A stretch of 57,519 nt of DNA from Folioceros fuciformis. Its lineage: Eukaryota. Location of the stretch: assembly GCA_049999805.1 (NCBI GenBank), contig JBNGIO010005227.1:1-57519 (forward strand), written 5' to 3'. Numbering within the stretch: position 1 is the first letter of the stretch; each line of letters starts with the position of its first letter. The notes beneath the pieces are model-generated. The model had not been told where the DNA came from and searched no databases. It saw only the letters and a program-made list of their open reading frames with translations. This document shows, one piece after another, positions 14,867 through 57,519 of the stretch. The position numbers and the translations under genes were made by a program.

Positions 14867-16198
14867 TTCTTGCTCCCTCCAATCTTGGGGGTTTGCATGA
14901 AATGCCTGGTGGACAAGAGTAGATTCAAAACTGAGAGAATCGTGCGGAAGACGCTGGGAAAGAACACTGAGACATTCACCACTTTCATCAAGTCTGAACA
15001 TGACGAGGACGCATGGTTGAATTCAAGGCCGGGGAATTGTGGTCTCAGTCTTGTTTGCATTCAAACTCTCTAGCTTCGAGCTAATAGGAGCCAGATTGTA
15101 TGTTGTTGTGATGGTACTTGGGCGGCTTGGCATAGTCTATTGTTTGACTCATCTTCCGACACCTATTTTGAACAATGGCCACAGTATGACAATCGGATCC
15201 CTTGTGGACCCAACACATTGTTGTGAGTGAAGGAATTCTATTAGGAGCTCCTGCTGGCCTCACTATAGGGAGTGAAGCCCTAGCCAACAAAGTCAAGTGG
15301 CCCCAACTTTGACTCTACTTAGATTGTTCCTCCAATCTTCAGTGTAAATGGCCCCAACTTTGGCCCTGCTCGGGTTGTTTCTCCAATCTTTGGAGTAGAT
15401 GAGACTTTCCATCTCTTTTGCATGAATTTGAAACAACCATTAGGTTTCAAAAGGAGTAGTGAGGTGGTTTCTATGAAACCCAAACCCATATATGTAACCT
15501 ACTGGGCGAAGCAACAAGGACACAAGTGGGGCAAGTTATCCTTGGAGCCCCATAGCTCCAAAAGGTTCATTTACATGTTTCATACCATTTTTGTCTGTGA
15601 CATGCAAACCTGTCCACACATGGCATAATCTTCCAGAAGAGGCCGCCTGATCCAATCCAATATGTGAATACCCAGATGAATGCAGGAGAAGCACATGTCG
15701 GAATCTTCCATGGGACGGAATATAGAAGAAGAAAGGTCAGTGGTGTTTGCTAACACCATAGAGAGAGAAGAAGAAGAAGAAGTGTAAATATCATCGGCGC
15801 AGCCCATATGCTGCATGCTGTTAAGAAGGGCGAGCGCCGAGGGACGAAGGGAAGCCATGAGGAGGGCAGGGCAGGGCAGGGCTACGGCAGCGGAGGCGGT
15901 TAACGGAAGAAACAGAAAACGGGCAGGCCATAATGCGGGGCGTAACAAGTCATTCATGAGGTGGCACGGAACGGGAAGGCAGAGAGGCGTGGTAACGGGG
16001 TCACGGGCTAGTACGGAGTCCGTTAAGCGGCGCGAAGCTGCACGTACAGCGATGTGATGAGAGATGGGGTTGGAGCTGGGCAGGTAGCGTGTCAGCTGAA
16101 GCTCCGGCCCCACACGGTCGTCCCAAACTCCCTCCCCCCGCCTTCCTTATCCCAGTCAGTATGAGGTATTCCTGTCCTTTTGAGTCCCTGTTATATTT

Positions 16199-16598
16199 NN
16201 NNNNNNNNNNNNNNNNNNNNNNNNNNNNNNNNNNNNNNNNNNNNNNNNNNNNNNNNNNNNNNNNNNNNNNNNNNNNNNNNNNNNNNNNNNNNNNNNNNNN
16301 NNNNNNNNNNNNNNNNNNNNNNNNNNNNNNNNNNNNNNNNNNNNNNNNNNNNNNNNNNNNNNNNNNNNNNNNNNNNNNNNNNNNNNNNNNNNNNNNNNNN
16401 NNNNNNNNNNNNNNNNNNNNNNNNNNNNNNNNNNNNNNNNNNNNNNNNNNNNNNNNNNNNNNNNNNNNNNNNNNNNNNNNNNNNNNNNNNNNNNNNNNNN
16501 NNNNNNNNNNNNNNNNNNNNNNNNNNNNNNNNNNNNNNNNNNNNNNNNNNNNNNNNNNNNNNNNNNNNNNNNNNNNNNNNNNNNNNNNNNNNNNNNNN
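16199..16598. other. assembly gap (400 N); other gaps at 1387-1396, 2353-2362 and 27388-27487
   Basis: N runs in the sequence. Confidence 1.
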
Positions 16599-18772
16599 GA
16601 TTGGAGCTTTGGGGAGCCTCACTACGCTGAATGTGGAGGGGAATGCCTTCAATGACTCCATTCCCGCTAACATCAGCGGCTTGCGCAGCCTGGTGGTGTT
16701 TGAGGCTTCCGGGAATGCCTTGTCCGGGATTCTACCCGAGGGGGTCGGGGATTTGACGGAGCTGCAAACCTTGCGCCTGGCGCACAATCTGCTGCTGGGG
16801 TCTCTGCCAGAGGGGCTGGCGGCCTTGGACAGGCTCACGGTTTTGGACTTGTCGGATAACTTCTTGGAGGGTGATTTGCCTGCCGGCTTCCTTGTGTCTG
16901 CTGATGTCACGGACAACTGCTTCGCCAATGGCACCCTGGGGCAGCAGCAGAAGCAGGTTTCCACCTGTGCGGATTTCTACTCGCAACAAGGGCTCCAGTT
17001 CGGGGGAGTTGCATCCAGTTCCAGCAGCCCCGCTTCCGGGCCGTCGGTCGACCAGACTCCCATTCTTACGCAGGGGGTCGCGGGGACCACGAGGGGGAGC
17101 CGTGCTCGCTTCAAGCTCATCGCTGCTGCTCTGCTGGGCGGGGTTGGGGGCCTCTTGCTCGTGCTTCTGGTTGGCTGGCTTGCTCTCTGTGTTCTCACCA
17201 GAGCTGGGAAGGGAGGAGGAGCGGGACGACCTCCCGCCGCTTTCGCCTTTGACTGTTCCAATGTTGCCCAAGCTGCTAGTGCGGCTCCGGCTGCCGCAGA
17301 CCTGGCTCACCGGCTGGGAGAGGCGTTTGCGTACGCCATTTTGGAGGAGGCGACGAGGAAGTTCCATGCTGGGAACCTGATTGTGGCGGGCCGGTCAGGA
17401 GAGCTTTACAGAGGATTGCTGGATGGACACTTAGACGTAGTGGTGAAGCGGATAGAGATGAACAGCGTTAGACGAGGCTCCTTCGCAGCAGAGCTTGATG
17501 TCATGTACAGGACGTCGCACGTCAGAATAGTTTCGTTGCTAGGGCATTGTTTGGATAAGGAGGATGTCAAGTTCTTGGTTTACAGGTACATGCCCAATGG
17601 AGACCTGGCGTCCTCCTTGCACAAGAAGAAGCTCGTCACTTTCAGCCCTGGGGGAGCAGAGGTAGCCAACTCTCTGGATTGGATAACTAGGCTCAAGATT
17701 GCTATCGGTGTGGCAGAGGGGCTCACCTACTTGCACCAGCAGTGCAATCCTCCTCTCGTGCACAGGTGATGTCCATCGAGTTGGTGTTGCTTCCAAAGCT
17801 CTGCTGTCCTGTTGGGATAGGCTAGGCTAGGCTAGGGTGTGTGAATGTGTGAAAACTTGCTCTTCTCACACTGTTGTCCTCCTCTTCTGCTCCTTCAGGG
17901 ATGTTACATCTAACAGCATTTTGCTAGATGACAAGTACGAGGTCAGGATTGGGAGTTTGAGTGAAGTTCGCGTGCAGGATGGAGACCCACACCATCCCAG
18001 TATGATCTCACGTCTTCTTGGACTATCATTGTAAGCTTCCTGTCCTGTCAAGATCCTTCATTGGCTAGCTTATTTAACTTCGTTTCTTCTGCATGGCTGT
18101 AGCTGACTTGTTCCCAACTTTGTCCTCGTGTGCAGTAATTCGGAGCAAGTAGAGCAAGGAGGATTGGTATCAGTACCATCCACCTCACAAGATGTCTACA
18201 ACTTCGGGAAGGTTCTGCTGGAGTTGGTATCTGGACAGATCGGCATCAGCAGCTCCACGGACTCCAGGGCACACGCATGGCTGGAATGGGCTCTCCCTCT
18301 GGTGGACATCCACGACAGGGAGCTGCTTCCCAGGCTCGTAGATCCCACCCTCACGGTGCACGAGGATCTGCTAGAGGAGGTGTGGGCCGTGGCCATCGTG
18401 GCCAAGCTCTGCCTCAACGTCAGGCCAAGCAAGCGACCCAGCATGCGGCACGTCCTCAGAGCCTTAGAGAACCCGCACAAGGTGATCAGGGAGGAAAACT
18501 TCAGGGAAACACTGTCCCTCAGAACATCCTCTCACAGCTCCTGGAACGAGGCCCTCTTCGGCAGCTGGAGGAGCAATTTTTCTTCCCAACGCTTCGGCCC
18601 ACTGACAGGGTCACTGCGGGAGGAGTACTCTTTCAAGAACGGAATTGCGGGATTCCAGCTGGCGACCAACCCGGTCCCGCACTCCAGGCGGGCCTCCAGT
18701 GAGATCGCCCCGGAGCCTCTCAAAGACCGTTTCTACGGATCTCGCCCGGGGCAATCCGAGTTTGTGCACTGA
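16599..18772 (+). CDS. LRR receptor-like kinase, subfamily XIV (At2g16250-like); 5' end lost in the 400-N gap at 16199-16598
   Basis: Plant LRRs (LxxLxLxxNxLxGxLP), a TM helix, and a kinase with VVVKRI, HR|DVTSNSILLDDKYEVRIGSLSEV and DVYNFGKVLLELVSG. Exons: ..17765, 17899-18030, 18136-18772. Confidence 0.9.
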
Positions 18773-51826: not shown

Positions 51827-52362
51827 TAACCTGGCTGCAGAATTCCCCACACCCCTCCTCCTCGTACATGATCGTTAAGTAAATTTGGTGACCACTGCTA
51901 CGTAGTAACCGTAGACTGGCGGAAATTTGCTCATCGAGCTAGCCTAGGCGGAATATGGAAAGCTGATCATTTCACTAAAAGCCTTCTGTGACCTGCAATG
52001 AGCTTCGTAATTTGATGTCTAATTCGTACACCACGGCATGTTTAGGCGGCCCCGTAGTAGAACAGTCTGTGTCCTTGCCACACATGCGACAGTGGACAAC
52101 GCGTCCAGTTTTGGTCAGCAGACATGGTAGGGATTCTCATCTCACACCGTTCTCCAAACGGTTGGCACTAGTACTGTAAGCCCCAAAAGCAGGCCAGGCC
52201 AGGCCAGGCGGGCAACATGCACACGGGTTCTTTCCATTATCATGAGAGGTGCCAGGAACAGCGTTCGAAATCCATGTCCTGAGTTTGGAGAGGAATATTC
52301 ATGTACCACCACTGTCTCAGCAAGCACATCCACCCCTGGGCAAATCAGCACTAGCATGATCC

Positions 52363-55296
52363 TCACGGTCGACCCTGACAACTGCAACAACCTTCAGTGA
52401 ATCGATGCACACGGTACCCATCCCTCACAACAATGTCTCTCTGTTCAAGCCGTGACATGATCTCCGTGGAACTGTGGCAGTCACTGCACATGCGTAGATT
52501 CTTCGTTACCACAAGAGGTGTCCCACTCGGAGTGTTCAACAGACCAAACGCTAAGGCTAACTTCTCAGCATGCCCACAAAGCACATCTTCCTTTTCCTTC
52601 TCAGAGACTGGCTTCAACACCAATTTTGTCTGAGGTACGTGGCCTCCTTCCTGCTTCACACGGGCATTCGTGCTCACTACCTTAAGAGCAAGATCATCTC
52701 TTTTCTCCCCCACGGCAAATGTATGTACCTGCTTCTTCACCTCAATCGTGGCCACTGCAGGTTTCTTGTTAGCTCCTACTGCCCTTCTCTGTGTTTCAAT
52801 CCTATCTACATCGGTCCACATACCTGCATCTGCGTAGGCATTAGCCATGAGCACATAGGCGGACGCCATTTGAGGGTCCAGCCTAACAATGCTTTCAAAA
52901 CACCATACAGCCCTCTCTATATCCCCGTGATTTTTGCAGGCATTCAACAAAGTCATCAAGCCAACTGCGTTACTCTGGCCCTCACTTGATAATAGCATCT
53001 TCTCTGCCTCATCCAAAAGGCCAGCACGCCCCAGAAGATCGATCATACAGGTGTAATGCTCAATAGTAGGTTTGATGCCATGTTGTTCGGCCATGGAATG
53101 AAAGTGTTTGCGTCCCTCGTTGACCAGTCCCTCATGACTGCATGCTACTAGAAGGCAAGTAAAAGTAGCATCATCAGGCTGAACACCAGCAACTAACATC
53201 TTCTCGAAACAAGCTAGTGCCTTGTGACCTTCATCGCAGGCACCATAGCCAGCAATCAGGGCATTCCATGTCACCGCGTCCTTTGTGGCCATGCTGTCAA
53301 AAACTTGGCAAGCATTTTTCAGATCGCCACATTTGGCATACATGTCCACCAGGCAGTTGCCCACCACAACGTCCTCCAGCAGTCCTCTTTCAACAATCTG
53401 TGAGTGCAGTTGCATACCCTTCTGCAAGGCACCAGAGCTTGCACAGGCCTTTAGAAGGCAAGCAAAAGTAAAATGGTCAGCTAAAATCAGCCCCTCCTGC
53501 TCCATTTGTCCATATACGGCAAGCGCCTCATGTCCAAGCTCTTGCTGTGAATACCCCGCAATCAGGGCATTCCATGTCACCACATTCTTTGAGGTCATGC
53601 TATCAAGGACCTGGCGTGCATCTTTCATTTCACCACATTTGGCATACATGTCCACCAGGCAGGTGCCCACAACCACATCATCCAGCAGTCCTCTATCCAC
53701 AATCTGGGAGTGCAGGTGCCTCCCCTCCTGTAAGGCGCCAGTACTTGCACAGGCCTTCAGAAGGCATGTAAAAGTAACATGGTCAGCCAAAATGAGGCCA
53801 GCCTCCTCCATTTGTCCATACACAACAAGCGCCTCACGTCCAAGCCCTTGCTGGGAATACCCAGCCATCAGCACCGTCCATGTCACCACATCCTTTGTGG
53901 CCATGCCGTCAAAAACCTTGCGCGCATCTTCCAGTTCCCCACATTTGACATACATGTCCACCAGGCAGTTGCCCAACACTACGTTATCCAGCAGTCCTCT
54001 TTCGACAATCTGTGTGTGCAGTTGCATGCCCTTCTGCAAGGCGCCAGTGCTTGCACATGCCTTCAAAAGGCAAGCGAATGTAACATGGTCAGCCAAAACA
54101 AGGCCTGCCTCCTCCATTTGTCCATACACAAGAAGCGCCTCGTGACCAAGTCCTTGCTGTGCATACCCAGCGATCAAGGTGTTCCATGTCACAACATCCT
54201 TTGTGGCCATGCTGTCAAAGACCTGGCGTGCGTCTTCCAGCTTCCCACATTTCGCATACCCAGCAATCATGGCATTCCATGTCACCACATCCTTTCTGGT
54301 CATGCTGTCAAAAACCTGGCGTGCATCTTTCAGCTCGCCACATTTTGCATACATGTCCAACAGGCAGTTGCCAACAAACAAGTTAGTAGGAATTCCACTC
54401 TGCACCACATCACGGTGCACTTTCCTGCCAGAATCCAAGTCGGAAGCAAATGCACAAGCTTGAAGGACAGCTACAAAGACGTGAGCGTCCGCCTTCACTC
54501 CTGACCTACACATGTCATCATACAGTCGTATGGCGTCATTGGGTTTCCCATGCTTTGCATATGCGGAGATTATGGAAGACCACATGAAGGCATCCGGTTT
54601 CCCAACTCTGGTGAGCACATCCATGGCCTCCTCTAACCTCCCTCCGCATGCGTACATGCGCAATATATGGTTCCCCAAGTACGCATTGGACTCGTACCCA
54701 AGTTTGACACTGAGATCATGAACCCGTCGTCCCACAACCAAATCCTTCTTCGCTGTACAAAGTTTCAGCACAGTGCAAACCAGAGACGGAGAAACAGCAG
54801 AGTCCGTGAGAGCCAGAGACTCCAGGGCTTTAACGGCCTCGGACAGCTTCCCCTGCTGACATAACATGCTCACAGTGACGGCAGAAGCGACGCCCATTTC
54901 CACCTGCATATCCAAGAAAACGAGCTTCTCATCAACCCAACCAGGCTTGAACGCACTGTTCAACCACAGCACCTCCCCGGATCCCTTACGCCGGAAGTCA
55001 GGCGAACGGGAGCCCTTCTTGTCTCGTCGGTTATCCCACCACATGGTAGGGTCCAGAAAATATTGTTCCCACAATTGCTCCTGCTCCTGGCGACGACCAT
55101 CGTTGGAAATCTCTTCCCCACCCACAAATTTCCTTGGCTGTGGAAGTGCTGGGCTCCTTGCAGTGCTGCACCTGGAGGCTTTGCTAGCCGGGGCTCGAGT
55201 CCCTAAGACGCTTTTAGCAGGAGCTCCCGGTAGAATGCCTGTACACATTCCAATTCGTGGGGTCGACAACAAATCCGGTTGCCATACTGTGGCCAT
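52363..55296 (-). CDS. PLS-class PPR RNA-editing factor with N-terminal PDF (OSB-type) motif and C-terminal DYW:KP / GRP deaminase-like domain
   Basis: Intronless, ~977 aa from the ATG at 55296. Order: transit peptide; WWDNR..PDF motif; about 19 P/L/S repeats ending P2-L2-S2; E1/E2; KKPAVATIEV, HAEKLALAFGL, CSDCH; terminal CSCQGRP*. Confidence 0.95.
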   Translation of the reverse strand: MATVWQPDLLSTPRIGMCTGILPGAPAKSVLGTRAPASKASRCSTARSPALPQPRKFVGGEEISNDGRRQEQEQLWEQYFLDPTMWWDNRRDKKGSRSPDFRRKGSGEVLWLNSAFKPGWVDEKLVFLDMQVEMGVASAVTVSMLCQQGKLSEAVKALESLALTDSAVSPSLVCTVLKLCTAKKDLVVGRRVHDLSVKLGYESNAYLGNHILRMYACGGRLEEAMDVLTRVGKPDAFMWSSIISAYAKHGKPNDAIRLYDDMCRSGVKADAHVFVAVLQACAFASDLDSGRKVHRDVVQSGIPTNLFVGNCLLDMYAKCGELKDARQVFDSMTRKDVVTWNAMIAGYAKCGKLEDARQVFDSMATKDVVTWNTLIAGYAQQGLGHEALLVYGQMEEAGLVLADHVTFACLLKACASTGALQKGMQLHTQIVERGLLDNVVLGNCLVDMYVKCGELEDARKVFDGMATKDVVTWTVLMAGYSQQGLGREALVVYGQMEEAGLILADHVTFTCLLKACASTGALQEGRHLHSQIVDRGLLDDVVVGTCLVDMYAKCGEMKDARQVLDSMTSKNVVTWNALIAGYSQQELGHEALAVYGQMEQEGLILADHFTFACLLKACASSGALQKGMQLHSQIVERGLLEDVVVGNCLVDMYAKCGDLKNACQVFDSMATKDAVTWNALIAGYGACDEGHKALACFEKMLVAGVQPDDATFTCLLVACSHEGLVNEGRKHFHSMAEQHGIKPTIEHYTCMIDLLGRAGLLDEAEKMLLSSEGQSNAVGLMTLLNACKNHGDIERAVWCFESIVRLDPQMASAYVLMANAYADAGMWTDVDRIETQRRAVGANKKPAVATIEVKKQVHTFAVGEKRDDLALKVVSTNARVKQEGGHVPQTKLVLKPVSEKEKEDVLCGHAEKLALAFGLLNTPSGTPLVVTKNLRMCSDCHSSTEIMSRLEQRDIVVRDGYRVHRFTEGCCSCQGRP

Positions 55297-56109
55297 CGCT
55301 GCTGTCGGAGGAGCATGGAGAGCACAGGACAGGACAGGACACGCCAATCGTCCTCTCCTCGCGCACCGAATTCACTGCACCCAGGCCAGGGTTGATGTAC
55401 AGGACTGAGTGACCCGGATGGTGAATGGGCGTGGAGTGCCTTCACATCTGCTGAACACCATAGCGAACAGTTAACCGCTTCAAAAGACATTCGAGCTTCA
55501 TTTTGTGTTCATCTTTGGGATATTTTGTGTTTGGGTATATTTTTAGTACCCATGGGCATATGCTACTTGGCAAGGACGGAACAAAATGCACACTTCATTC
55601 CAAGAAAGGAAGGGATGCTTTTAAATAATTGAATGTATAAAAATTATATAATGAGATGAAAGAAACTTAAGACAAGGGATGATTAACATAGTAACCTTGA
55701 TTAATTTTGCTTCATTTGAAGAAAGAAAAAATATGGATGAAAAGAAATATTACGGGTACAAGAAGAGTCATTATTATGAACTAAAAGTGGGTTTATACGA
55801 GTTTATACGAGCTCTTACAGTGCTCTTGGAACAAAGAAACCACAAAGTGAACAACACACCACATCTAAGTTCTTTCTAACAGTCATTGGCGCTAGGATTT
55901 GAAATCCTACTTCTCTAGGATGATTTGCTAAGTGATGAATAACAACTAAAAAATCCTAGAGTCAATCCAACAAGATGAACTCCCAACAATGGAGGGGAGC
56001 TTTTCAATCCAATAAGATGGCCATATGTGGATGAGGAAGCTCCACAAAGTTTGGTAGAACTGGAACGTGAAAAGGAGTTGCACCCGAGAAGAAGTTGCTT
56101 TTGGGTTGA

Positions 56110-57519
56110 TCACTTTTCATAGGATTCGTCCAAGGACGAAATATAACTACCAAAACTATCGTGTTCTGAAGCTGACGAGTCGTAAGAATTAAGGTCCGCA
56201 GAGTCTGTCAACGACGAATGAGCTGTAGCAGTGAATCCTGCAACAGCTCCGTTGGCATCCGGGACTCTGTCATTGCAAGCGGCAGCATCAGAGCCTGTGG
56301 GCGCCGCATTCCCAGCTGTAGCGCCAAGCTCCTCGTTTTCTAGATCCTCTTCCTCGTCTGTTTCGGAGTCGTTCTCGGCCCTTTCCCCGTGCCCTACAAC
56401 ATCCACATCCAGACAGTCAGCAGGCTAAAGTAGGCGGAGGTATGCACGAGGGCTTGAAAACATGGTAACCACAGTGCATGGTCCGTATGCCCAGGTCGGG
56501 ATGGATTTTGACCCGTACCCGTGGGTGACGCATTTCTGTTGCAATCTGGGAGCCTGTGATTGTGAGTTACAACAGCAGAGCCTGTGGGTGCAGGATTTTC
56601 AGTCGTAGCACCGAGGTTCCTGGTTCCGCGTTCCCCTTCCGCTTCATCGTCCGTTAGCCCTTCGATGTCGATGTCAGAGTCGGAAGAACTAAAGTAGTCC
56701 GCGAGCTGAGAGGTTTGAAAAGGAAAAGGTATTCTGGACATCGACGACGAGATGGGATTCACAGATTCCATGACGGTATCAGAGGCGATGGTGGCGGATT
56801 CCCGTGGGATTGAAGTCGCCCTAGAGAGTTTCGGCGACTGGACGCGATTTTGGTTCCTACTCGTGGGTCCTCCGACGGTGCCGTTGGAATCTGGGTCTCT
56901 ATGGTGATCATCCTTGTGAGTGGCATCTATATCAGAGCCTGTGGACCTCGGATTTTGAATCGTGCCAGCAAGATCTCTAGTCCCGCGACCCTTGACCTCT
57001 TCGGTATCTGCGTCTTCGAGATCGAGCGCTTCCATATGGATAATATCGGACTCAGTAAAGACCTGAGAGCCTGTTGGCGCCAGATTTTCAATCGCATCAC
57101 CGACTTCTCTGACTCCGGCTCCATCTTCCTCCTCGTCATCTGTACTACGGTCGATATCGATTATCCAGTCGGGAGGGCTAGAGTTGCAGGCTGTCGGACA
57201 ACAACCCGACCAGGCTGGTCGGGTTGTCAACCCGACCAGTCCCGACAACGAGATGGGATTTTGAGCCGTACTCGCGGGTCCTCCAACAGTTTGGTTGCAA
57301 TCTTGGATCCTGCCATTGCAAGTGACAAGTCCATGAGAACCTGTGGGCGCCGGATTAGCAATGGTACCATCGACTTCTGTGATTCCGCGTCCCTCTTCCC
57401 GTACATGTGCCTCTGCCTCTGCCTCTGCCTCTGCCTCTGCCTCTGCCTCTGCCTCTGCCTCTGCCTCTGCCTCTGCCTCTGCCTCTGCCTCTGCCTCTGC
57501 CTCTGCCTCTGCCTCTGCC
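56110..57519 (-). CDS. 3' part of an acidic, low-complexity repeat protein (5' end beyond the window)
   Basis: The frame is open from the window end through (EA)n and four units of the type RGxxxLG/DGxxxNPAPTGS (three of them followed by R.PD.N). A fifth unit lies in a different frame at 56110-56393, after an AG acceptor at 56394. Confidence 0.55.
57408..57519. repeat. (CTCTGC)n hexanucleotide microsatellite, encoding (EA)n on the minus strand
   Basis: Perfect run of about 18 units up to the window end. Confidence 0.95.

What the first reader, a model, noticed from the sequence alone, without database searches (positions are those of the whole stretch)
52363..55296. PPR editing factor fusing an OSB-type PDF ssDNA-binding motif to a DYW:KP/GRP (U-to-C class) editor
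Seen: between the transit peptide and the first PPR repeat (~54934-55074) is LWEQYFLDPTMWWDNRRDKKGSRSPDFRRKGSGEVLWLNSAFKPGWV, in the same stop-free, intronless ORF as the PPR array and DYW domain. Established: this pattern (LW..FF..P..WWDNR..K....PDF..K..GE.LWL...P.WV) is the PDF motif of plant organellar single-stranded DNA-binding (OSB) proteins; canonical PLS-DYW editors lack it. Inference: the fusion might tether an RNA editor to nucleoids, transcription bubbles or R-loops, giving co-transcriptional editing, or add non-specific nucleic-acid affinity. I do not know whether this architecture has been described.
Basis: partly seen in the sequence, partly recalled or inferred. Interest (0 to 1): 0.85.

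Follow-up and report, generated by a model that had tools for sequence, protein, structure and literature searches.

The report
RNA-editing PPR protein with OSB-type domain
A hornwort-type RNA-editing gene carries, in front of its RNA-reading repeats, a small domain otherwise known from plant organelle DNA-binding proteins, and the same combination turns out to be common in mosses, liverworts, lycophytes and ferns although no paper we could search describes it.

Summary
Window 52363-55296 (-) is one stop-free ORF of 977 aa with a transit-peptide-like N-terminus, one PDF domain (residues 67-133), a PLS-type PPR array, an E motif and a DYW deaminase domain of the hornwort GRP subgroup of DYW:KP. 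A profile built only from named angiosperm OSB1/OSB3 PDF motifs hits the segment at 70 bits (E 5e-18 at Z=1e6).

The fusion is neither unique nor tied to the U-to-C class. I collected 52 PDF+PPR sequences from ferns, lycophytes, mosses, a liverwort and unnamed assemblies. Of the 12 that carry a DYW domain, 10 end in canonical DYW/DFW and 2 in GRP. The PDF is always N-terminal and abuts the PPR array. PPR-linked PDFs cluster in a tree, and a single clade is not rejected.

AlphaFold2 gives a confident small helix/three-strand/helix domain. Its last helix runs on into the first PPR helix. Foldseek finds no PDB analogue.

The likely role is inferred and untested: an accessory single-stranded nucleic-acid-binding module at the 5' end of the PPR footprint.

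No paper in seven full-text searches links the PDF motif to PPR proteins. Three key papers are not held.

The parts
52363..55296 (-). Complete intronless coding sequence, 977 codons plus the TGA stop (52363-52365)
55117..55296 (-). Residues 1-60: transit-peptide-like N-terminus, rich in Ser/Thr/Ala/Pro/Arg, with one acidic residue
   Evidence: Composition read. This region is only 17% identical to the closest GRP homologue P0189. No targeting predictor was available.
54898..55098 (-).
   Evidence: AF2 pLDDT 88.4, with helix, three short strands, helix.
52930..54897 (-). Residues 134-789: PLS-type PPR array. The first PPR-like helix is continuous with the last PDF helix.
   Evidence: Pfam PPR families with 17 stretches. 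AF2 of residues 58-330: pLDDT 94.7, with one helix spanning model positions 63-90.
52771..52929 (-). Residues 790-842: E motif region
   Evidence: Pfam PF20431 at 790-852, 4.1e-14
52366..52770 (-). Residues 843-977: DYW:KP deaminase-like domain of the GRP subgroup
   Evidence: Pfam PF14432 at 885-975, 8.5e-34; PMC9478123
52759..52764 (-). K845-P846, the K-P pair in place of the P-G of the PG box
   Evidence: Sequence, compared with the moss PG-type consensus
52564..52572 (-). H909-A910-E911, the HxE zinc/catalytic signature in its HAE form
   Evidence: HAE is named as the KP active-site form in PMC9478123.
52477..52488 (-). C937-S-D-C940, the CxxC signature
52366..52374 (-). C-terminal G-R-P in place of D-Y-W

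Best explanation
The gene encodes an organelle-targeted PLS-class PPR protein with a hornwort GRP-type DYW:KP domain. It is a candidate site-specific U-to-C RNA editing factor. Its mature N-terminus is one OSB-type PDF domain.

The PDF-PPR combination is an old and widespread architecture of seed-free land plants, not a peculiarity of this gene or of U-to-C editors.

Shown here:
- homology of the segment to OSB PDF motifs;
- its fixed position directly in front of the PPR array in all 52 PDF+PPR sequences collected;
- its conservation at the level of the PPR array and far above that of the transit peptide;
- a confident predicted fold whose last helix continues into the first PPR helix.

Inferred:
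- PPR arrays bind RNA in parallel, with the N-terminal repeats on the 5' nucleotides (established knowledge, recalled). A rigidly attached PDF domain rich in aromatic and basic residues would then sit at the 5' edge of the RNA footprint.
- There it most likely adds sequence-independent single-stranded nucleic-acid affinity, raising occupancy of the target without changing specificity or the editing chemistry.
- U-to-C activity is inferred from class membership alone.
For: Homology to OSB PDF motifs:
- 622 proteins hit at E<=1e-3. Named OSB1 and OSB3 proteins are among them.
- A profile built from named OSB proteins only gives 70.1 bits on the window segment.

Fixed position:
- In 52 of 52 PDF+PPR sequences, every PDF copy (1-3 per protein) lies upstream of the first PPR match, usually within about 30 residues. 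Eight of the 52 are isoforms or allelic copies.

Spread across lineages (names):
- ferns: Adiantum, Ceratopteris, Pteridium;
- lycophytes: Selaginella, Diphasiastrum;
- mosses: Ceratodon, Sphagnum;
- liverwort: Calypogeia.

Not tied to the KP class: of the 12 with a DYW domain, 10 end in DYW/DFW and 2 in GRP.

Origin: PPR-linked PDFs cluster in the tree, with 12 label changes against a shuffled mean of 54 and 0 of 500 shuffles as low. One clade is not rejected, p-AU 0.83.

Constraint: identity to the GRP homologue P0189 is 49% in the PDF domain, 55% in the PPR array and 17% in the transit-peptide region.

Structure: pLDDT is 88.4 for the domain alone. It is 94.7 (pTM 0.77) for residues 58-330, with a continuous helix at model positions 63-90.

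RNA-level support in a relative: Pteridium transcriptome ORFs carry the PDF and PPR repeats together (P0086, P0135).

Literature:
- The PDF motif of AtOSB1 is reported to be sufficient for ssDNA binding (PMC6963530, passages).
- GRP is a hornwort DYW:KP subgroup. A designer protein built from GRP sequences (KP3) is among those the paper reports as converting U to C (PMC9478123, passages).
Against: No binding or editing data exist for any PDF-PPR protein.

A review states that AtOSB1 and AtOSB2 bind ssDNA in preference to dsDNA or RNA (PMC4166229, passages). RNA binding by a PDF domain is therefore not established.

Editing works without native N-termini. Designer KP proteins have no PDF (PMC9478123). 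Moss PPR56 is routinely expressed without its N-terminus (PMC10482289). Any role is thus accessory.

The module is dispensable in some relatives. The Physcomitrium/Funaria PPR_45 cluster has no PDF even with all filters off, while Ceratodon proteins about 60% identical to it do.

Foldseek found no PDB analogue (best E 3.6), so the fold gives no independent hint of nucleic-acid binding.

The tool returns neither PAE nor coordinates, so the inter-domain geometry rests on secondary structure, pLDDT and pTM only.

The cleavage site of the transit peptide is not known.
Confidence: 0.6

Rival explanations
1. Nucleoid or ssDNA tether. The PDF domain binds single-stranded organellar DNA, such as transcription bubbles, R-loops or replication intermediates. 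This holds the PPR factor at nucleoids so that it meets its RNA co-transcriptionally.
For: The only biochemical data on PDF motifs concern ssDNA. The PDF of AtOSB1 is reported sufficient for ssDNA binding (PMC6963530). OSB1 and OSB2 prefer ssDNA to RNA (PMC4166229). The PPR-linked PDF keeps all invariant residues of OSB PDFs.
Against: The rigid helical continuity with the first PPR repeat places the domain in line with the RNA path rather than on a flexible tether. PPR-linked PDFs form their own cluster apart from OSB PDFs, so their binding preference may have diverged. No localisation data exist.
Confidence: 0.2
2. Protein-protein module. The PDF domain recruits a partner, or drives oligomerisation, for PLS-PPR proteins in lineages that lack the seed-plant helper proteins. 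It does not act mainly through nucleic acid.
For: All named PDF-PPR proteins in my sets come from seed-free plants. No seed-plant PPR protein listed or one search had a PDF hit. AtOSB2 is reported to be a tetramer (PMC6963530).
Against: Nothing points to a partner. The domain has 10 aromatic and 10 basic residues among the 63 of residues 71-133 (read), which suits nucleic-acid stacking. The published PDF function is ssDNA binding. Absence from seed plants is not shown, because only 150 of the 622 hits were listed.
Confidence: 0.12
3. Inert relic. The segment is removed with the transit peptide, or it is a decaying remnant with no role in the mature protein.
For: It lies next to the presequence. 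Close relatives can lack it (PPR_45). Heterologous editing needs no N-terminus.
Against: All invariant PDF residues are kept. Identity to the homologue is 49% in the PDF against 17% in the presequence. The fold is confidently predicted and joined to the PPR solenoid. The position is retained across the liverwort, moss, lycophyte and fern sequences and the hornwort-type gene here.
Confidence: 0.05

Closest known systems
Hornwort DYW:KP proteins of the GRP subgroup (Gerke et al. 2020 and Gutmann et al. 2020, seen only as cited in PMC9478123; designer proteins KP2/KP3 of Ichinose et al. 2022, PMC9478123)
   Same: PLS-type PPR array, E motif, K-P in the PG box, HAE...CxxC active site, no HP dipeptide after the PG box, C-terminal GRP
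   Different: The passages I read say nothing about a domain upstream of the PPR array. The designer proteins replace the native N-terminus with a tag and a consensus PLS array. This gene has a PDF domain there.
[quoted passage not shown] 2006, not held; seen as described in PMC6963530, PMC4166229 and PMC13393729)
   Same: The same ~65-residue PDF domain with its Trp/WWDNR/PDF/LW signature, and organelle targeting
   Different: OSBs have an OB-fold-like domain followed by 1-5 C-terminal PDF copies and no PPR repeats. Here one PDF is N-terminal, there is no OB fold (Pfam), and the rest of the protein is PPR-E-DYW. PPR-linked PDFs cluster apart from OSB PDFs.
PPR proteins with accessory domains (RRM-PPR such as PPR4, PPR-SMR, PPR-LAGLIDADG such as OTP51, PRORP with NYN, also CBS and SAP; listed for Physcomitrium in PMC9459714)
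   Same: A PPR array joined to a second nucleic-acid-related module
   Different: The domains listed are RRM, LAGLIDADG, SMR, NYN, CBS and SAP; PDF is not among them. [quoted passage not shown]

Membership tests
PDF motif/domain (as in OSB proteins) | Significant match to a profile of PDF motifs from bona fide OSB proteins | tested here: met
   The profile was built from named Populus OSB1, Lupinus OSB3 and Amborella OSB3 segments only. It scores 70.1 bits, E 5.3e-18 (Z=1e6), on residues 67-133.
PDF motif/domain (as in OSB proteins) | Signature residues (conserved Trp, WWDNR, P-D-F, L-W, P..W) | tested here: met
   The window copy has all 9 invariant and the nearly invariant columns of a 42-sequence alignment.
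PDF motif/domain (as in OSB proteins) | Binds single-stranded DNA | not testable with these tools
   Known only from the literature on AtOSB1 (PMC6963530)
OSB protein family | OB-fold/SSB-like domain upstream of C-terminal PDF motifs | tested here: not met
   Pfam finds only PPR, TPR-like, E and DYW families, and nothing in residues 49-139. The PDF is N-terminal. The protein contains an OSB domain but is not an OSB protein.
PLS-class PPR-E-DYW editing factors | Tandem PPR repeats followed by an E motif and a DYW deaminase domain with HxE and CxxC | tested here: met
   PF01535 1.1e-101 (17 stretches), PF20431 4.1e-14, PF14432 8.5e-34. HAE at 909-911 and CSDC at 937-940.
DYW:KP, GRP subgroup | K-P instead of P-G in the PG box | tested here: met
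   K845-P846, compared with the ..EPGRSWIE.. consensus of moss PG-type domains. The definition is from PMC11845758.
DYW:KP, GRP subgroup | Last three residues G-R-P | tested here: met
   The subgroup is named in PMC9478123.
DYW:KP, GRP subgroup | xHP residues after the PG box missing, as in most DYW:KP domains | tested here: met
   No HP follows the VH.F..G segment, whereas the moss PG-type consensus has ..GDTSHP... The criterion is from PMC9478123.
DYW:KP, GRP subgroup | U-to-C editing activity at a defined organellar site | not testable with these tools
   No organelle transcriptome or assay was available. Activity is shown in print only for designer consensus proteins (PMC9478123).

The most novel reading that the evidence does not exclude
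PDF-PPR is an undescribed, ancient class of PLS-type PPR proteins. It arose once, before or at the base of land plants, and spread to dozens of genes per genome in hornworts, liverworts, mosses, lycophytes and ferns. The OSB-type PDF domain acts as a built-in single-strand anchor, on nascent RNA or nucleoid ssDNA. In seed-free plants it does the affinity-boosting job that separate helper proteins such as MORF do in seed plants, and it was lost when those helpers appeared.
Probability: 0.15. Interest if true: 0.8.

Novelty: new variant of a known kind. Interest (0 to 1): 0.5.

Why it matters
PPR editing factors are studied and engineered almost entirely as PPR array plus E/DYW domains. Native N-termini are routinely cut off (PMC10482289) or replaced (PMC9478123).

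A conserved, folded, probably nucleic-acid-binding domain in front of the array, in five seed-free lineages, would be a missing part of the native editing machinery in the very plants that have U-to-C editing and simple one-protein editosomes.

It also shows that the PDF domain is not private to OSB proteins. This bears on how OSB genes are counted. One review lists OSB as not detected in Selaginella (PMC4166229), yet a Selaginella PPR protein carries a PDF (P0128).

In practice, the Pfam copy used here has no model for the domain. Domain-based surveys therefore miss it. The 2026 kingdom-wide survey of editing-factor domain fusions does not contain the terms OSB or PDF (PMC13386178).

If the PDF raises RNA affinity, it could be a useful add-on for designer PPR editors.

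Tried and rejected
- **Own genome:** no genome is held for this window, so I could not count PDF-PPR genes in the source organism.
- **Word-indexed search:** the search with the 75-residue segment alone found nothing. This is a limit of the word index, as the exhaustive search shows.
- **Pfam on the N-terminal 91 residues:** no family, even at E 10.
- **PF26713:** this family appears in precomputed annotations of many hits. I considered it as a possible PDF model and rejected it. Proteins without a PDF carry it (P0182, P0217) and proteins with a PDF lack it (P0186, P0189, P0197).
- **PDB:** the sequence search gave 0 hits at E 10. Foldseek against the PDB gave 15 matches, none at E<=0.001, with TM at most 0.31. 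I suspected a dsRBD-like helix/three-strand/helix topology, but no search supports it.
- **ESM Atlas:** the best score was 0.80, to phage clusters, which is below the level that means anything.
- **Sequencing runs:** no RNA holder was listed.
  - Run X1 (kind guessed, Logan contigs) holds 66% of the sampled words. It has error-free contigs on 52100-52424, 52923-53077, 53207-53353, 53641-53830, 54712-54874 and 55080-55460.
  - No listed contig bridges the PDF-PPR junction.
  - Bins 55488-55700 had no cover.
  - None of this says anything about expression or splicing.
  - The many joints come from paralogous PPR repeats at 90% likeness and were not interpreted.
- **Characterised moss editing factor with a PDF:** the only named one retrieved, PPR_45 (Physcomitrium/Funaria), has none.
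- **Earlier findings of this scan:** three look-ups returned nothing.
- **Papers not held:** Zaegel 2006, Gerke 2020 and Gutmann 2020. Supplementary files were not consulted. The PPR catalogues in those papers or their supplements could mention the motif.
Full report
**The observation**

The window holds one long ORF at 52363..55347 on the minus strand. From the first ATG (55296) it translates to 977 residues followed by TGA (P0001). Pfam finds PPR families (PF01535 1.1e-101, 17 stretches), an E motif (residues 790-852) and a DYW_deaminase domain (885-975). It finds nothing on the N-terminal 91 residues tested separately. A six-frame scan finds no other PDF or PPR coding segment in the window. 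An ORF at 16180-17769 has LRR and kinase matches, in keeping with a plant nuclear genome.

**Is it a PDF motif?**

phmmer with residues 61-135 against 1.84 billion representative proteins gave 622 proteins at E<=1e-3, 163 at E<=1e-10 and 18 at E<=1e-30. Only the best 150 are listed. Exact look-ups gave source names for some of them:
- Populus 'protein OSB1, mitochondrial-like' (P0034, E 3.7e-23);
- Lupinus and Amborella 'protein OSB3, chloroplastic/mitochondrial' (members of the P0004 and P0013 clusters).

To avoid circularity I built a profile only from the PDF segments of those named OSB proteins. It hits P0001 residues 67-133 at 70.1 bits, E 5.3e-18 with Z set to 1e6. In a 42-sequence alignment the window copy has every invariant column. 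The domain-level identification is therefore secure, and the conserved unit is about 67 residues rather than 47. The protein is not an OSB protein, because it has no OB-fold-like domain and its PDF is N-terminal.

**The C-terminal domain**

The PG box reads K-P. The active site is HAE...CSDC. No HP dipeptide follows the PG box. The protein ends in GRP.

From passages of PMC11845758 and PMC9478123:
- the K-P pair defines DYW:KP;
- DRH and GRP are the two hornwort variants;
- most KP domains lack xHP;
- KP2 was designed mainly from GRP proteins and KP3 from GRP sequences of a hornwort genome, and the paper reports three of its seven designer DYW:KP proteins as converting U to C in bacteria and human cells.

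The closest full-length homologue I retrieved is an unnamed 950-residue protein that also ends in GRP and also has a PDF (P0189). No identical or near-identical named protein was found.

**How common is the fusion?**

Among the 150 listed hits, 12 also have PPR repeats. A search with residues 1-330 and one with five moss proteins brought in more. In all I hold 52 PDF+PPR sequences, 8 of them isoforms or allelic copies.

Named sources:
- ferns: Adiantum capillus-veneris, A. nelumboides, Ceratopteris richardii, Pteridium aquilinum;
- lycophytes: Selaginella moellendorffii, Diphasiastrum complanatum (at least 15 loci, some with two or three PDF copies);
- mosses: Ceratodon purpureus, Sphagnum compactum;
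- liverwort: Calypogeia fissa.

The Pteridium entries are transcriptome ORFs, so in that fern the PDF and the PPR repeats are on one mRNA. None of the seed-plant PPR proteins in the lists had a PDF hit. Absence from seed plants is nevertheless not shown, because 472 of the 622 hits were not listed.

**Not linked to the editing direction**

Twelve PDF-PPR proteins have a DYW domain.
- Two end in GRP (P0001, P0189).
- Ten end in DYW or DFW: P0146, P0186, P0197, P0205, P0219, P0251, P0261, P0316, P0336 and P0392.
- Seven of these ten have a verified P-G box.

Most PDF-PPR proteins have no DYW domain at all. Many have E motifs (precomputed Pfam) and several copies of the PLS-typical M-Y-x-K-C-G signature.

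**Anatomy and evolution**

In 52 of 52 sequences all PDF copies lie upstream of the first PPR match, mostly within about 30 residues and 50-75 in the moss group.

In a FastTree of 437 PDF segments the PPR-linked ones cluster, with 12 label changes against a shuffled mean of 54 and 0 of 500 shuffles as low. In an IQ-TREE of 55 PPR-linked and 60 sampled other segments, the tree that holds the PPR-linked ones together is not rejected (p-AU 0.83) and was even better than the free search. Two isoform rows were dropped before that count. With only 65-70 columns this shows that one origin is compatible with the data, not that it happened.

Against P0189, identity is 17% in residues 1-60, 49% in the PDF, 55% in the PPR array, 60% in the E region and 71% in the DYW domain. 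The PDF therefore behaves like part of the functional protein and not like presequence.

In the coded runs, 15-29 (X1) and 33-48 (X2) distinct contigs carry other letters at PDF-coding positions 55014-55068 at 90% likeness or more (table 3). Near-copies of this stretch therefore exist there. What they are attached to was not shown.

**Structure**

AlphaFold2 on residues 58-140 with 42 aligned sequences gives pLDDT 88.4 and pTM 0.74. The elements are helix 8-24, strands 29-31, 44-46 and 52-53, and helix 63-76. Foldseek against the PDB finds nothing (best E 3.6, TM at most 0.31). The PDB sequence search is also empty.

AlphaFold2 on residues 58-330 with 29 PDF-PPR sequences gives pLDDT 94.7 and pTM 0.77. 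It shows a single helix from model position 63 to 90, so the last PDF helix runs straight into the first PPR-like helix. Neither coordinates nor PAE are returned, so I cannot describe surfaces or check the relative orientation further.

**Mechanism**

The published function of PDF motifs is ssDNA binding. The PDF of AtOSB1 is said to be sufficient for it (PMC6963530), and OSB1 and OSB2 prefer ssDNA to dsDNA or RNA (PMC4166229).

Residues 71-133 hold 10 aromatic and 10 basic residues (read). PPR arrays bind RNA with the N-terminal repeats on the 5' side (established knowledge, recalled). The domain is rigidly joined to the first repeat.

I therefore think it most likely contacts single-stranded nucleic acid just 5' of the PPR-specified sequence and adds non-specific affinity. 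The alternatives are a nucleoid ssDNA tether, a protein-binding module or an inert relic.

Against a core role:
- editing by designer KP proteins and by N-terminally trimmed PPR56 needs no such domain;
- the PPR_45 cluster of Physcomitrium and Funaria lacks it.

All functional statements here are inference.

**Novelty**

Seven full-text searches were made of about 8.1 million PMC papers and 0.36 million preprints. They found only five papers with 'PDF motif', three of them on OSB proteins, and none linking it to PPR proteins.
- The 2026 OSB family study has no occurrence of 'PPR' (PMC13393729, find).
- The 2026 kingdom-wide survey of editing-factor domain fusions has no 'OSB' or 'PDF' (PMC13386178, find).
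- The Physcomitrium PPR review lists RRM, LAGLIDADG, SMR, NYN, CBS and SAP as extra domains (PMC9459714, find).

Zaegel 2006, Gerke 2020 and Gutmann 2020 are not held, and supplements were not seen, so a prior mention cannot be excluded.

The gene itself is an ordinary member of the hornwort GRP family. The accessory domain on PLS-PPR proteins is, as far as I could check, undescribed, but it is widespread in public protein sets.

**Verdict**

I rate it a new variant of a known kind, of moderate interest.

Noticed in passing
P0047 (Coptis chinensis, 1526 aa), P0042 (Striga hermonthica, 1063 aa), P0002 (Kingdonia uniflora, 1160 aa): PDF motifs also occur in other predicted contexts. Three lie in front of a kinesin motor domain. 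Three are in a protein named 'Interactor of constitutive active ROPs 2'. Thirteen matched stretches are in one Kingdonia protein with no Pfam family. These may be true architectures or fused gene models.
   Followed up: partly
P0016 (Astrephomene gubernaculifera, 383 aa): A volvocine green alga has a protein with four PDF stretches (E 1.8e-36). PMC13393729 states that Chlamydomonas lacks OSB genes, whereas PMC4166229 says PDF motifs are conserved in green plants including Chlamydomonas.
   Followed up: no
P0128/P0152 (Selaginella moellendorffii): PMC4166229 lists OSB as not detected in Selaginella, yet a Selaginella PPR protein carries a PDF at residues 3-63. The domain can therefore persist on PPR proteins where OSB proper was not found.
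   Followed up: partly
P0342/P0430 (Physcomitrium/Funaria PPR_45) versus Ceratodon P0186, P0205, P0219, P0261, P0316, P0336: Six Ceratodon DYW proteins have a PDF. They are about 60% identical to the PPR_45 cluster, which has none even with all HMMER filters off. The module is therefore gained or lost among close moss paralogues.
   Followed up: partly
window 16180-17769 (+): An ORF of 529 aa has leucine-rich repeats and the start of a protein kinase domain. It is probably one exon of an LRR receptor-like kinase gene.
   Followed up: no
window 56394-57518 (-): An open frame runs off the window end. It begins with a long Ala-Glu dipeptide run, which is a simple repeat in the DNA. It also holds internally repeated acidic segments. 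No Pfam family matches.
   Followed up: no
window 55320-55345 and 52190-52215 (-): Short tandem pentamer and hexamer repeats (gtcct and ggcctg units) lie just upstream of the ATG and in the 3' flank of the PPR gene.
   Followed up: no
cluster of P0342: The 90% identity cluster that holds PPR_45 also lists RabF1 small GTPases of Physcomitrium. This is probably because one 1416-residue gene model joins the two neighbouring genes.
   Followed up: no
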